Assembly: GCA_042576705.1 (NCBI GenBank)
Contig: JBHPEY010000001.1
Location: forward strand, 1,045-65,044
DNA from: Nanobdellota archaeon
Lineage (GTDB): Archaea; Nanobdellota; Nanobdellia; Woesearchaeales; UBA11576
Reading direction: 5' to 3'
DNA: 64,000 nt
A program made the position numbers and the translations under genes. Below the pieces are notes generated by a model that was not told the origin of the DNA, ran no database searches, and worked only from the letters and a program-made list of their open reading frames with translations. Positions 44,565 through 45,760 of the stretch are shown in pieces. Position 1 is the stretch's first letter, and the number at the start of each line of letters is the position of its first letter.

Positions 44565-44593
44565 GTCCTTCGCATTCTTTTTCTGTGTTCGAG

Positions 44594-45760
44594 ATGCCAG
44601 AAGAGAAGGAAAAGACCACGCAAGGGGATGCCATGCTCAAGTTATACATGACTGATGTAGGTGACTTTCCAGTCCTTCGCCGTGCGGAAGAGGTGGCACT
44701 GGCAAAGAAGATAGAGGATAGACACATGCGGTTGGTGTTTGATTTCTGCAGCTATCGGGGCCGGACAACACCTAGTTTTCCAGGCCTCTCTGTGCTGGAG
44801 GTCTCGTTGAGCAAAGCGTTTGAGGATGAAGGACAGCATCAGAGGTACAAGAATCTCAAGCGAAGGCTCGACTACAAGAAAAGGAAGTCTAATCTTGAAC
44901 AGATCTCAGCAGAGATATTCGCAATGATCCCTGAGCACCGCATCGAGATAGTCAGGTCTGCTGCAGAGTACGTGGTAAGGCATGATCAGGTAAACCACGA
45001 GCTTGTCAAGAGTTTGAGGGGCGACCTGAAAGCAGCATACAGTAGACGGAATGAGTTCGCGCAGTGCAACCTCAAGTATGTCATATCAATCGCAAAGAGG
45101 TTCCAGGGACGGGGCATTCTTCTGAAGGACCTTATCCAGGAGGGTAACATCGGCCTGCTGAAAGGCATCGACAGGTTCGATTACCGACTAGGATACAAGT
45201 TCTCAACATACGCGGCGTGGTGGATACGGCATGCGATGGGCAGGGCAATCGCAGACAAGGCACGTGCAGTGCGGCTTCCAGTCTATGTGACTGACTACCT
45301 GAACGACTGCAGGACCCATTATGGCAGACAGTTCAAGGCCCTGGGGAGGATTCCAACACCATATGAGGTGGTGGAAAGCATGATTGAAGGCAAACCCACC
45401 CAGAGACAGATCGACAAGTACATCGAGATGATGCAGGTCCCTACTGTCTACTCGTATGACGAGCCTGTCAATGACGAGGTTGGACATAGCTTCATGGACT
45501 TCCTTGGCGACACGTCTTTTGAGCATACTGTTGATGACATAGCCACGCAAGAGCTGTTCCAGAAAGTAAGAGCTGTGATGTCCAAAGTCCTCACATCCCG
45601 TGAGCGGGAGGTGTTGGAGAAACGGTACCTGCTCGATGAACCTCAGACCCTGAAACAGATAGCGCAGGTCTATGATCTCAGCAGGGAAAGGATACGGCAG
45701 CTGCAGGAGATAGCCCTTGAAAAGGTAAGGCGAAGGATGACAGGGTATAATATGAATTGA
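44594..45760 (+). CDS. bacterial-type RNA polymerase sigma-70 family factor (regions 1.2, 2, 3, 4)
   Basis: Region 1.2 is [27 protein letters not shown]. Region 2 is [74 protein letters not shown]. Region 4.2 is [48 protein letters not shown]. The track start at 44585 is GTG. Confidence 0.9.
   Translation: [388 protein letters not shown]

What the first reader, a model, noticed from the sequence alone, without database searches (positions are those of the whole stretch)
44585..45760. Intact bacterial-type sigma-70 factor gene embedded in an archaeal genome
Seen in the sequence: the ORF carries, in order, four sigma70 elements.
- Region 1.2 is [27 protein letters not shown].
- A non-conserved spacer of about 100 aa follows.
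- Region 2.1-2.4 is [74 protein letters not shown].
- Region 3 and the region 4.2 HTH follow ([48 protein letters not shown]).

These strings closely match the core-binding and promoter-recognition segments of bacterial RpoD/RpoS-type sigmas.

Context: every informational gene in the window is archaeal. These include split rpoB, rpoA'/A'', rpoH, eL15, eL30, archaeal S12/S7, Rad50 and intron-containing tRNAs. Archaeal initiation uses TBP/TFB/TFE, not sigma.

The gene is full length with no frameshift. It has a TTTATAAT box 25-35 nt upstream, like its archaeal neighbours. It lies between a DeaD-type helicase and a UvrD-type helicase that also look bacterial, so 42.9-48.2 kb may be a domesticated bacterial-derived islet.

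What a sigma does beside an archaeal RNAP is unknown. It could bind the A' clamp helices, act as a stand-alone DNA-binding regulator, or act on a bacterial partner's polymerase.

Caveat: from memory, sigma-like ORFs have been remarked on in genome surveys of DPANN-type archaea. The occurrence may therefore not be new, but I know of no functional characterisation.
Basis: partly seen in the sequence, partly recalled or inferred. Interest (0 to 1): 0.85.

Follow-up and report, generated by a model that had tools for sequence, protein, structure and literature searches.

The report
Bacterial-type sigma factor kept by archaeon
A small, rarely sampled group of DPANN-type archaea has inherited and kept an intact bacterial sigma-70 transcription factor gene, driven by an archaeal promoter; sigma genes in such archaea have been reported before, and what they do beside an archaeal RNA polymerase is still unknown.

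Summary
The ORF at 44585/44594-45760 (+) is an intact sigma-70-family gene: Pfam regions 1.2, 2 and 4 score above threshold, it aligns colinearly with E. coli sigma70 and the model has the primary-sigma fold. It lies in a clearly archaeal contig (rpoH-B''-B'-A'-A''-L30e-NusA operon, L15e, Rad50). Codon usage matches the window, and a BRE/TATA promoter sits about 30 nt upstream.

Two independent metagenome contigs carry a sigma at the same position, between or next to the same helicases. A fourth member lies beside UvrA. The gene is therefore neither a chimera nor a recent insert: it was acquired from bacteria (H437 'WWIRHA' subfamily, mostly Myxococcota-labelled) and then inherited vertically.

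It evolves much faster than its neighbours (35-37% versus 57-73% identity). It still keeps the core-binding, -10-melting and -35-recognition residues, so it is under selection.

The occurrence is already published (Castelle et al. 2021, PMC8204110), and NCBI annotates this protein as RpoD/SigA. No functional study was found.

Best guess, which is inferred and not shown: an accessory promoter-binding factor that docks on the archaeal RNAP clamp. I rate it a new member of a known kind, of moderate interest.

The parts
44549..44564 (+). Archaeal-type core promoter of the sigma gene: a purine-rich BRE-like GCGAAATG (44549-44556) followed by the TATA box TTTATAAT (44557-44564)
   Evidence: Sequence read. 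The same CGAAAA + TATA-like box lies 31-37 nt before the ATG of the sigma gene in L010, L014 and L022. TTTATAA at about -30 is the common pattern for neighbouring genes in the window.
44594..45760 (+). Sigma-70-family gene, 388 aa from the ATG (an alternative GTG at 44585 gives 391 aa); identical to NCBI MFC1740957.1 'RpoD/SigA [Nanoarchaeota archaeon]'
44636..44719 (+). Region 1.2 (residues 15-42 of the 388-aa protein). There is no region 1.1: only 14 residues precede it.
   Evidence: Pfam PF00140 28.1 bits against a cut-off of 22; aligned to E. coli sigma70 residues 98-130
44720..45043 (+). Clade-specific spacer (the 'non-conserved region') between regions 1.2 and 2. It is helical and carries motifs shared only by the four archaeal members (H..L..D.C..R....P...G; E.VR.A).
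   Evidence: Alignments; model pLDDT 64-90; no relatives found with this part alone, though that is a weak negative
45062..45265 (+). Region 2.1-2.4, containing the core-binding helix [10 protein letters not shown] and the -10 melting/recognition aromatics [13 protein letters not shown]
   Evidence: Pfam PF04542 67.8 bits. D403, Q406, N409, F427, T429, Y430, W433, W434, R441, R448 and R451 (E. coli numbering) are invariant in all four archaeal members; E407 is kept in three of the four.
45278..45523 (+). Region 3.0-3.2 (sigma3 domain and sigma finger/linker), strongly diverged
   Evidence: No Pfam r3 hit, but colinear with E. coli 448-530. Helices 230-250, 256-263 and 270-280 are modelled; the linker 284-314 has pLDDT <50. 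Identity among the archaeal members is 25-33%, against 57% among the bacterial relatives.
45587..45730 (+). Region 4.1-4.2 helix-turn-helix with the -35 recognition helix SRERIRQ
   Evidence: Pfam PF04545 52.8 bits. R584, E585, R586, I587, R588 and Q589 (E. coli numbering) are invariant in all four archaeal members.
42912..44459 (+). Upstream neighbour: a DEAD-box RNA helicase (CshA-like), syntenic in L014 (73% identity) and absent in L010
46106..48229 (+). Downstream neighbour: a UvrD2-like SF1 helicase with an RQC-like N-terminal domain and a C-terminal HRDC domain. It is syntenic in L010 (67-69% identity) and L014 (63%) and has its own conserved upstream motif ACACCGCAATATTCTTAAA (46065-46083).

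Best explanation
SHOWN. This is a genuine sigma-70-family gene of the group-2-like 'H437/WWIRHA' subtype. It has regions 1.2, 2, 3 and 4 and lacks region 1.1. It is native to a rarely sampled Nanoarchaeota (DPANN) lineage. It derives from bacteria, was inherited vertically at a conserved chromosomal position, is driven by an archaeal BRE/TATA promoter, and has been kept open and under selection in at least four lineages while evolving much faster than its bacterial relatives and its own neighbours.

INFERRED. The surface residues that stay invariant are exactly those that in bacteria grip the beta' clamp coiled-coil (region 2.2), capture the flipped -11A/-7T bases of melted promoter DNA (region 2.3), and read the -35 hexamer (region 4.2). 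The protein therefore most likely still works as a promoter-DNA-binding, polymerase-docking factor. With no bacterial core enzyme known in these organisms, the most likely partner is the homologous clamp coiled-coil of the archaeal RpoA', the universal docking hub that TFE, the TFB linker and Spt5 also use. On this reading the sigma is an accessory or regulatory initiation factor for a subset of genes, working alongside TBP/TFB rather than replacing them. Its constant adjacency to bacterial-type repair genes (UvrD2-like helicase or UvrA) points to a DNA-damage or repair regulon.

CONFIDENCE. About 0.9 for the identity, inheritance and selection part. About 0.3-0.35 for the docking-on-archaeal-RNAP mechanism.
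For: - Domains and fold: Pfam r1.2, r2 and r4 are above their cut-offs. TIGR02937 passes, with best full-length similarity to RpoD models. The protein is colinear with E. coli sigma70. AlphaFold pLDDT is 78, and Foldseek returns only primary-sigma chains at probability 1.0.
- Native to the archaeon: RSCU correlation with the rest of the window is 0.89 and GC3 is 0.62, like the RNAP genes. Archaeal hallmark genes lie on both sides of the same 143-kb contig. The BRE/TATA promoter is conserved in four loci.
- Vertical inheritance: L010 shows glutaredoxin, two hypothetical genes (one rubrerythrin-like), CYTH ... sigma, UvrD2; L014 shows DEAD, sigma, UvrD2. These come from independent samples with GC 0.47-0.48. 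The four members share spacer motifs that bacterial relatives lack.
- Selection: all four ORFs (388-420 aa) are intact despite about 65% divergence. Each of the three syntenic members retains 74-86 of 113 positions that are >=95% conserved in bacterial relatives, against about 35% overall identity. The core-binding, melting and -35 residues are invariant.
- Accelerated evolution: region 2 identity is 58-67% among the archaeal members against 88% among the bacterial relatives. Sigma identity is 35-37% where the neighbours are 57-73%.
- Origin: the clade nests in the H437-type clade in 297/300 NJ bootstraps, and named relatives are mostly Myxococcota/Polyangia.
- Repair-gene adjacency holds in 4/4 loci.
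Against: - No interaction with any polymerase was tested.
- The RpoA' clamp coiled-coil of this organism is ordinary archaeal: 186 bits to Thermococcus Rpo1N against 60 bits to bacterial beta'. By my own ungapped alignment to the E. coli beta' sequence recalled from memory, the three positions genetically defined as critical for sigma70 binding (beta' R275, E295, A302) read I, L and H here.
- Sigma70-type -35/-10 matches in 36-55 kb are barely above chance (32 against 23.1 +/- 4.2) and mostly intragenic. No conserved TTGACA/TATAAT pair was seen upstream of the syntenic genes.
- Region 3.2 and the linker, which thread through the bacterial RNA exit channel, are the most diverged parts.
- A more distant relative of the helicase locus (L017) has no sigma within 6 kb, so the gene is dispensable outside a narrow clade.
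- Monophyly of the four on regions 2-4 alone is weak, 45/300.
- The rest of the genome could not be inspected for bacterial core subunits.
Confidence: 0.4

Rival explanations
1. Stand-alone DNA-binding regulator. The protein was recruited as an ordinary helix-turn-helix transcription regulator, like most archaeal regulators, which are of bacterial type. It would bind double-stranded operator sites through region 4.2, and possibly region 2/3.0, near archaeal promoters without contacting RNA polymerase.
For: Region 1.1, which auto-inhibits free-sigma DNA binding in primary sigmas (established knowledge), is absent. The region 4.2 recognition helix is invariant. The archaeal clamp lacks the classical sigma-binding residues (plus own alignment). 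Fast evolution and a degenerate region 3.2 fit loss of core-enzyme constraints.
Against: An HTH-only role does not explain strict conservation of the solvent-exposed core-binding residues D403, Q406 and N409, or of the single-strand-capturing aromatics Y430, W433 and W434, in all four fast-evolving members. Those positions would be expected to drift.
Confidence: 0.25
2. It targets a bacterial RNA polymerase. The archaeon lives on or with a bacterium and uses the sigma to redirect the partner's core enzyme, as phage-encoded sigmas do. Alternatively the genome encodes a bacterial-type core elsewhere.
For: All determinants for bacterial core binding and for -10/-35 recognition are retained. Rapid evolution could reflect an arms race. 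Sigma-like auxiliary genes occur on DPANN viruses (PMC12647753).
Against: There is no signal peptide or secretion context; the N-terminus is hydrophilic. The neighbours are housekeeping or repair genes. Known DPANN hosts are archaea (established knowledge). Castelle et al. report the normal archaeal TBP/TFB/TFE in DPANN and mention no bacterial core polymerase in the passages read. The gene lies in a stable chromosomal position, not in an effector or mobile island.
Confidence: 0.08
3. Neutral passenger or decaying relic of horizontal transfer, with no current function.
For: Very fast divergence (35-37% identity between siblings whose neighbours are 57-73% identical) and loss of the Pfam region-3 signal. 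The gene is absent beside the helicase in the more distant L017. The clade is tiny: 4 members among about 5.8 billion protein clusters.
Against: Four independent lineages keep ORFs of 388-420 codons without stops or frameshifts. An unconstrained sequence of 390 sense-or-stop codons would stay open with probability about (61/64)^390, roughly 1e-8 (own calculation). The three syntenic members retain 66-76% of the bacterial near-invariant positions, against about 35% overall identity. A conserved archaeal promoter lies upstream in all four. Codon usage is fully ameliorated.
Confidence: 0.05
4. Artefact: a chimeric assembly or mis-binned bacterial fragment.
For: The nearest homologues are all bacterial. 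The sibling contigs L010 and L014 do not themselves contain archaeal marker genes.
Against: Both junctions of the sigma gene are reproduced in independent assemblies from other samples. A chimera would need two mis-joins inside a 143-kb contig with archaeal markers on both sides. GC, GC3 and codon usage are host-like. The promoter is archaeal. Castelle et al. ruled out mis-binning for DPANN sigmas generally.
Confidence: 0.02
5. Cargo of a provirus, mobile element or anti-phage defence system (e.g. an MzaA-like sigma, or a Gabija-like UvrD helicase).
For: NCBIfam and PADLOC MzaA models hit the protein (200.9 and 136 bits), and GajB models hit the neighbouring helicase. rpoS-like genes have been reported on DPANN viruses.
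Against: The MzaA hit covers only the generic regions 2-4, scores far below the cut-off of 800, and the roughly 430-aa MzaA N-terminus and its partner genes are absent. There is no GajA partner. PHROGs finds no virion, integrase or other phage-specific genes across 39-49 kb. Viral contigs hold no relative closer than 40%, and almost all match regions 2-4 only.
Confidence: 0.03

Closest known systems
Sigma-70 genes reported in DPANN archaea (Castelle et al. 2021, Front Microbiol, PMC8204110, protein family fam00359; 'particularly prevalent in Woesearchaeota')
   Same: A sigma-70-family gene on a contig with archaeal informational genes; mis-binning excluded; no anti-sigma factor nearby; function unknown. 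NCBI labels the source organism 'Nanoarchaeota archaeon'. From my own knowledge, not checked here, the GTDB phylum Nanoarchaeota includes the Woesearchaeota-type orders.
   Different: I could not compare sequences with fam00359. In the databases searched, this protein belongs to a very small clade (four members) with its own spacer motifs, and no other relative exceeds about 47% identity. It may therefore be an independent acquisition. New here: the synteny, the rate acceleration, the residue-level conservation, the archaeal promoter and the adjacency to repair genes.
Bacterial 'H437-type' RpoD-like sigma-70 factors (about 440-520 aa) annotated mostly from Myxococcota/Polyangia MAGs, e.g. P0002, P0011, P0059, P0281
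   Same: They share regions 1.2, 2, 3 and 4 in the same order, a long spacer between 1.2 and 2, and the signature WWIRHA (His at the E. coli Q437 position). The archaeal clade nests inside this group in 297/300 bootstraps.
   Different: Identity is only 33-38% full length, or 44-49% over regions 2-4. The bacterial proteins all keep a Pfam region 3 and are 88% identical to each other in region 2. Their spacer sequences are unrelated, and their genomic contexts are bacterial, with sigma54 activators and porins.
E. coli RpoD (sigma70) and RpoS; Thermus and Mycobacterium SigA (solved holoenzyme structures)
   Same: Best PDB sequence matches (E = 5e-53 to E. coli RpoD) and best fold matches. Core-binding helix, melting aromatics and the -35 recognition helix are conserved.
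   Different: No region 1.1. Scores are far below the RpoD and RpoS equivalog cut-offs (232 against 555; 192 against 379). Substitutions: Q437H, T440G, H455Y, E458D and L386Y. The host has an archaeal rather than a bacterial polymerase.
MzaA, the sigma-70-like component of the MZA anti-phage system (NCBIfam NF041931 / PADLOC PDLC02203)
   Same: Shares the sigma-70 regions 2-4.
   Different: Lacks the MzaA-specific N-terminal half, scores 200.9 against a cut-off of 800, and has no Mza partner genes. Not a member.

Membership tests
Sigma-70 family (Pfam clan; NCBIfam TIGR02937 superfamily) | Region 2 domain (core binding and -10 recognition), PF04542 | tested here: met
   67.8 bits against a cut-off of 24, residues 160-227. 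TIGR02937 scores 100.8 against 42.9.
Sigma-70 family (Pfam clan; NCBIfam TIGR02937 superfamily) | Region 4 helix-turn-helix (-35 recognition), PF04545 | tested here: met
   52.8 bits against a cut-off of 24.1, residues 335-382. The SRERIRQ recognition helix is identical to E. coli R584-Q589.
Sigma-70 family (Pfam clan; NCBIfam TIGR02937 superfamily) | Region 3 domain, PF04539 (present in groups 1-3) | tested here: inconclusive
   No Pfam hit at E<0.01, unlike every listed bacterial relative and unlike siblings P0122 and P0124. However, the alignment to E. coli is colinear through 3.0-3.2 and three helices are modelled at 230-280.
Sigma-70 family (Pfam clan; NCBIfam TIGR02937 superfamily) | Binds bacterial core RNA polymerase and confers promoter-specific initiation | not testable with these tools
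   Only residue conservation could be assessed: D403, Q406, E407, N409, Y430, W433 and W434 are retained.
Group 1 primary sigma (RpoD/SigA equivalogs) | Score at or above the curated equivalog cut-off | tested here: not met
   PRK05658 232.2 against 555; TIGR02393 206.8 against 354; PRK09210 201.7 against 572.
Group 1 primary sigma (RpoD/SigA equivalogs) | N-terminal region 1.1 | tested here: not met
   Only 14-17 residues precede region 1.2.
Group 1 primary sigma (RpoD/SigA equivalogs) | Region 1.2 present (groups 1 and 2) | tested here: met
   PF00140 28.1 bits against a cut-off of 22.
RpoS (group 2 stationary-phase sigma) | Score at or above the curated equivalog cut-off | tested here: not met
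   TIGR02394 191.9 against 378.7; PRK05657 175.2 against 394.
MzaA (MZA anti-phage system) | Full-length match including the N-terminal half; curated cut-off; partner genes MzaB-E | tested here: not met
   200.9 against 800. The PADLOC hit covers profile positions 433-657 of 683 only. No other PADLOC system components are present nearby.
DPANN archaeal sigma-70 genes (Castelle et al. 2021, fam00359) | A sigma-70-family gene co-encoded with taxonomically informative archaeal proteins on the same scaffold | tested here: met
   Same 143-kb contig as the RNAP operon, L15e and Rad50.
DPANN archaeal sigma-70 genes (Castelle et al. 2021, fam00359) | Sequence membership in protein family fam00359 | not tested
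   The family's sequences were not retrieved. None of the top database hits carried an archaeal label other than the query itself.

The most novel reading that the evidence does not exclude
The sigma docks on the archaeal RNA polymerase through the universally conserved clamp coiled-coil and directs or modulates initiation at a subset of promoters. That would be a working hybrid of the bacterial and archaeal initiation systems. It may be wired to the co-located bacterial-type excision-repair genes (UvrD2-like helicase, UvrA) as a damage-responsive module.
Probability: 0.2. Interest if true: 0.9.

Novelty: new member of a known kind. Interest (0 to 1): 0.55.

Why it matters
Sigma factors and TBP/TFB/TFE are textbook markers separating bacterial from archaeal/eukaryotic transcription initiation. 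A sigma that selection has kept for a long time inside archaea, still carrying its polymerase-docking and promoter-reading residues, raises a testable question: can the clamp coiled-coil hub of an archaeal polymerase accept a bacterial initiation factor? That bears on how interchangeable the two initiation systems are and on how DPANN archaea run their mixed bacterial/archaeal gene sets.

The present analysis turns a census observation ('sigma genes exist in DPANN') into a defined test case. It provides four orthologues, a conserved locus, a mapped promoter, a list of invariant interface residues and candidate functional partners.

Tried and rejected
1. Querying with the N-terminal 160 aa alone to find lineage-specific relatives returned nothing. 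It did not return the identical P0001 either, so this is a word-index artefact and a weak negative.
2. The genome-contig scan with the single protein found only bacterial relatives at <=43% identity. The source genome is not among the GTDB representatives held.
3. The look-up of encoding contigs for P0001 found no record.
4. Several full-length hits from the exhaustive search turned out to lie in bacterial contexts: P0133 and P0142 sit next to sigma54 activators and a porin. P0258's context was uninformative. P0121 and P0123 are fragmentary or duplicated bacterial-looking RpoD sequences on contigs under 2 kb.
5. Anti-sigma or partner search. The window's 72-aa ORF (45825-46043) has no family hits and no counterpart in siblings. 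A membrane-anchored ORF downstream of sigma is shared by L014 and L022, but it is absent from the window and L010 and has the wrong topology for an anti-sigma factor.
6. A defence-system reading (MzaA, Gabija) was rejected.
7. A provirus reading was rejected.
8. A search for a bacterial-type promoter regulon found 32 matches against 23 +/- 4 expected, mostly intragenic.
9. The AAACACCGC motif is only weakly enriched, 17 against 9 +/- 3.
10. A 'bacterialised' RpoA' clamp was rejected.
11. dN/dS was not attempted, because at 35-40% amino-acid identity synonymous sites are saturated.
12. A first NJ run with Biopython timed out and was redone with numpy.
13. Co-folding sigma with RpoA' was not attempted.
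Full report
OBSERVATION.

The ORF is real and intact. The ATG at 44594 (388 aa) is the more likely start. It is the start of the identical NCBI protein MFC1740957.1, 'RNA polymerase sigma factor RpoD/SigA [Nanoarchaeota archaeon]', on a 142,917-bp contig. It also lies 30-37 nt downstream of a TTTATAAT box at 44557-44564 that is preceded by a purine-rich BRE-like GCGAAATG.

Pfam detects three domains above threshold: Sigma70_r2 (67.8 bits, cut-off 24), Sigma70_r4 (52.8, cut-off 24.1) and Sigma70_r1_2 (28.1, cut-off 22). It detects no Sigma70_r3. 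NCBIfam places the protein in the sigma-70 superfamily (TIGR02937, 100.8 against 42.9). The best full-length similarity is to RpoD models, but far below their equivalog cut-offs (232 against 555); RpoS scores 192 against 379.

Phmmer against the PDB aligns residues 145-383 colinearly with E. coli sigma70 residues 367-600 (E = 5e-53), through regions 2, 3.0-3.2 and 4, and aligns region 1.2 with residues 98-130. An AlphaFold model (mean pLDDT 78.3) is all-helical with the expected sigma2, sigma3 and sigma4 bundles. Foldseek returns only primary-sigma chains from holoenzyme structures at probability 1.0. The low global TM-score is what one expects for a multi-domain protein modelled free of core enzyme.

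Region 3 is therefore present but too diverged for the Pfam model. Region 1.1 is absent.

CONTEXT AND ARTEFACT CHECK.

The window is archaeal. It holds RpoH (Rpb5_C) at 54743-55027, split RpoB''/B', RpoA', RpoA'', L30e and a NusA-type KH protein in the canonical operon order, plus L15e, S12/S7 and Rad50.

The sigma gene's composition is host-like. GC is 0.508 and GC3 is 0.622. Its synonymous codon usage correlates at r = 0.89 with the rest of the window, the same as the RNAP genes (0.90-0.92). TTTATAA at about -30 from the start codon recurs at neighbouring genes (41906, 42912, 48231, 48768, 31984, 27445). This is the archaeal TATA/leaderless pattern.

All window proteins checked lie on the same NCBI contig with consecutive accessions.

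There is one intron-less tRNA-Pro at 91-163.

RELATIVES AND SYNTENY (the main new result).

The protein is isolated. In a word-indexed search of 5.8 billion clusters, and in an exhaustive HMMER search of 1.84 billion representatives, the best non-self hits score about 233 bits at 38-47% identity.

Two of those hits lie in contigs that are syntenic with the window:

- L010 (JGI 3300041074, 9.2 kb) matches window 39.0-47.0 kb gene by gene: glutaredoxin 56%, a rubrerythrin-like protein 57%, a hypothetical 40%, CYTH 59%, then sigma (P0122) 37%, followed directly by the UvrD-type helicase at 67%.
- L014 (Logan ERR14790946, 5.9 kb) carries DEAD helicase 73%, sigma (P0124) 35% and UvrD-type helicase 63%.

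Both contigs have GC 0.47-0.48, like the window.

A fourth protein, P0160 (L022, SRR12687606, GC 0.495), groups with the three in an NJ tree and shares their spacer motifs. Its downstream neighbour is homologous to the ORF downstream of sigma in L014 (47% identity, E = 6e-48). Its upstream neighbour is a divergently transcribed UvrA.

A profile built from the three syntenic sigmas scores the members it recovers at 668-678 bits. Scores then drop to 338 bits for bacterial sigmas. The clade is therefore very small.

All four sigma genes have a CGAAAA/AGAAAG-type BRE followed by a TATA-like box 31-37 nt before the ATG.

A more distant helicase locus, L017 (53% identity, GC 0.32), has no sigma within 6 kb. 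The sigma thus appears confined to a narrow lineage, or located elsewhere in more distant relatives.

Together these data exclude chimerism and recent insertion, and they show vertical inheritance.

ORIGIN.

The named nearest relatives are bacterial sigma-70 proteins of about 440-520 aa, mostly from Myxococcota/Polyangia MAGs, with a few from Bacilli-labelled MAGs. They share with the archaeal proteins the signature WWIRHA, with His at the E. coli Q437 position. That His is found in 25/25 of this group and 4/4 archaeal members, against 12/68 of other top hits.

The four archaeal sequences nest inside this H-type clade in 297/300 NJ bootstraps. Their mutual monophyly on regions 2-4 alone is weak (45/300), as expected for long branches. 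Monophyly rests on synteny and on the shared spacer motifs. The donor is not resolved beyond 'H437-type, Myxococcota-like'.

SELECTION AND RATE.

The archaeal sigmas are as far from each other as from bacteria:

- Region 2: 58-67% identity archaeal-archaeal, 61-73% archaeal-bacterial, 88% bacterial-bacterial.
- Region 4: 42-48%, 41-56% and 73% respectively.
- Region 3: 25-33%, 32-36% and 57% respectively.

The sigma is only 35-37% identical between siblings whose flanking genes are 57-73% identical. Evolution is therefore strongly accelerated in the archaeal hosts.

Even so, all four ORFs are intact. The three syntenic members retain 78, 74 and 86 of the 113 positions that are >=95% conserved in the bacterial relatives.

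Positions invariant in all four, in E. coli numbering:

- Region 2.2: D403, Q406, G408, N409, I410, G411, L412. E407 is kept in three of the four.
- Region 2.3: F427, S428, T429, Y430, W433, W434.
- R441, R448, R451.
- Region 4.2: R584, E585, R586, I587, R588, Q589.

From established structural and genetic knowledge of sigma70, these are the beta' clamp-helix contact surface, the residues that capture the flipped non-template -11A/-7T, and the -35 recognition helix.

Differences from E. coli in the window protein include Q437H (a subfamily trait), T440G, H455Y, E458D and L386Y.

MECHANISM (inferred).

Exposed interface residues persist against a background of rapid change. That argues that the protein still binds a coiled-coil partner and promoter-like DNA.

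The only polymerase evident is archaeal. Its RpoA' clamp coiled-coil ([48 protein letters not shown]) is homologous to the beta' clamp helices, but it is ordinary archaeal: 186 bits to Thermococcus Rpo1N against 60 bits to beta'. In my ungapped alignment to the E. coli beta' 269-310 sequence recalled from memory, about 12 of 42 positions are identical. The classical sigma-binding positions R275, E295 and A302 read I, L and H. This alignment is a lead, not a test.

My preferred model is docking on the archaeal clamp hub as an accessory initiation or regulatory factor. I give it about 0.3-0.35.

The rivals are as follows:

- A polymerase-independent HTH regulator (about 0.25). It is weakened by the conserved region 2.2/2.3 surface.
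- Targeting of a bacterial partner's polymerase (about 0.08). No secretion signal or effector context was found.
- A neutral relic (about 0.05). Intact ORFs and conserved promoters contradict it.
- An assembly artefact (about 0.02).
- Provirus or defence cargo (about 0.03). The MzaA and GajB hits are generic-domain hits only, there are no phage genes, and viral sigmas are <=40% identical.

No bacterial-type promoter regulon is visible. Sigma70-type matches number 32 against 23.1 +/- 4.2 expected and are mostly intragenic.

One lead from gene neighbourhood: in all four loci the sigma sits next to a bacterial-type repair gene. This is the UvrD2-like helicase in three loci and UvrA in the fourth. 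It suggests a link to DNA repair or damage-responsive transcription.

COMPARISON WITH WHAT IS KNOWN.

Castelle et al. 2021 (PMC8204110) already report sigma-70 genes (fam00359) in DPANN, 'particularly prevalent in Woesearchaeota'. They ruled out mis-binning, found no anti-sigma factors, and left the mechanism unclear. A 2025 study reports rpoS-like auxiliary genes on DPANN viruses (PMC12647753). Reviews of archaeal transcription still state that archaea use no sigma. I found no functional characterisation.

The occurrence is therefore known, and this particular protein is already annotated by NCBI. New here are the definition of a small syntenic clade, the evidence for vertical inheritance with accelerated yet constrained evolution, the archaeal promoter, the residue-level inventory and the repair-gene association.

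VERDICT.

I rate the novelty as a new member of a known kind and the interest as moderate (0.55). It is a textbook-crossing oddity and an open, directly testable question, but neither the occurrence nor the annotation is new, and the mechanism remains inferred.

Noticed in passing
window 46106-48229 (+): The helicase downstream of sigma has an unusual architecture: an RQC-like winged-helix N-terminus, a UvrD/PcrA SF1 core and a C-terminal HRDC domain. PGAP names it 'UvrD2'. Its codon usage is the most atypical among the larger genes of the window (RSCU r = 0.54), although it is conserved in syntenic siblings and, at 46-58% identity, in low-GC (0.26-0.39) contigs L017-L019.
   Followed up: partly
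L014 3553-4296 (-) and L022 4349-4990 (-): A membrane-anchored protein with no family hits lies immediately downstream of, and convergent with, the sigma gene in two of the four loci (47% identity, E = 6e-48). It is absent from the window and from L010, and its topology does not fit a classical anti-sigma factor.
   Followed up: partly
window 45825-46043 (+): A 72-aa ORF with a TTTAAAA box at -20 fills the 345-bp gap between sigma and helicase. The NCBI accession numbering leaves one accession (MFC1740958) unaccounted for between the sigma and the helicase, which suggests one gene call here. The ORF has no Pfam, PADLOC or PHROGs hits and no counterpart in sibling loci.
   Followed up: yes
window 40795-41328 (+); L010 2120-2659; L009 17076-17540: A CYTH-domain (triphosphate tunnel) gene lies a few kb from the sigma gene in the window and in its sibling L010 (59% identical). 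One also lies about 6 kb from the related sigma in the clearly bacterial contig L009. This may be coincidence.
   Followed up: no
window 48711-48732, between divergent genes 48231-48716 (-) and 48768-49541 (+): An inverted repeat, ACACCGG-ATT-GCGGTGT, sits in a divergent promoter region. Related AACACCGC-type sequences occur upstream of the helicase (window 46063-46071 and L010) and upstream of the sigma genes of L014 and L022. Window-wide enrichment is weak (17 against 9.1 +/- 2.9).
   Followed up: partly
window 28004-29530 (+): GMP synthase is the fused, bacterial-type single-chain GuaA (672.7 bits against a cut-off of 400), not the split form that, from my own knowledge (not checked here), many archaea have. 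This is another bacterial-looking gene in the contig. SpoIIM-like (20836-21687) and GH114 (31984-32967) genes are also present.
   Followed up: no
window 2879-3790, 14456-16663, 18106-20826: Several large proteins carry only Ig-like, PKD or Big domains, or no family hits at all. These are probable surface proteins.
   Followed up: no
window 42912-44459 (+) and 52125-53738 (-): There are two paralogous CshA-like DEAD-box RNA helicases 8 kb apart, about 36% identical to each other according to their matches on L014. Only the first is syntenic with sigma in L014.
   Followed up: partly
window 43847-44470 (-), 46079-46942 (-), 47489-48100 (-): Long antisense ORFs overlap the helicase genes and even give tblastn hits in sibling loci. 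This is a mirror effect of the conserved sense-strand coding sequence, not evidence of genes.
   Followed up: yes
tool behaviour: The word-indexed protein search with the first 160 aa of the sigma failed to return even the identical database entry P0001. P0124 was likewise missing from the profile search. Negative results from that tool for short or divergent queries should be treated as weak.
   Followed up: no
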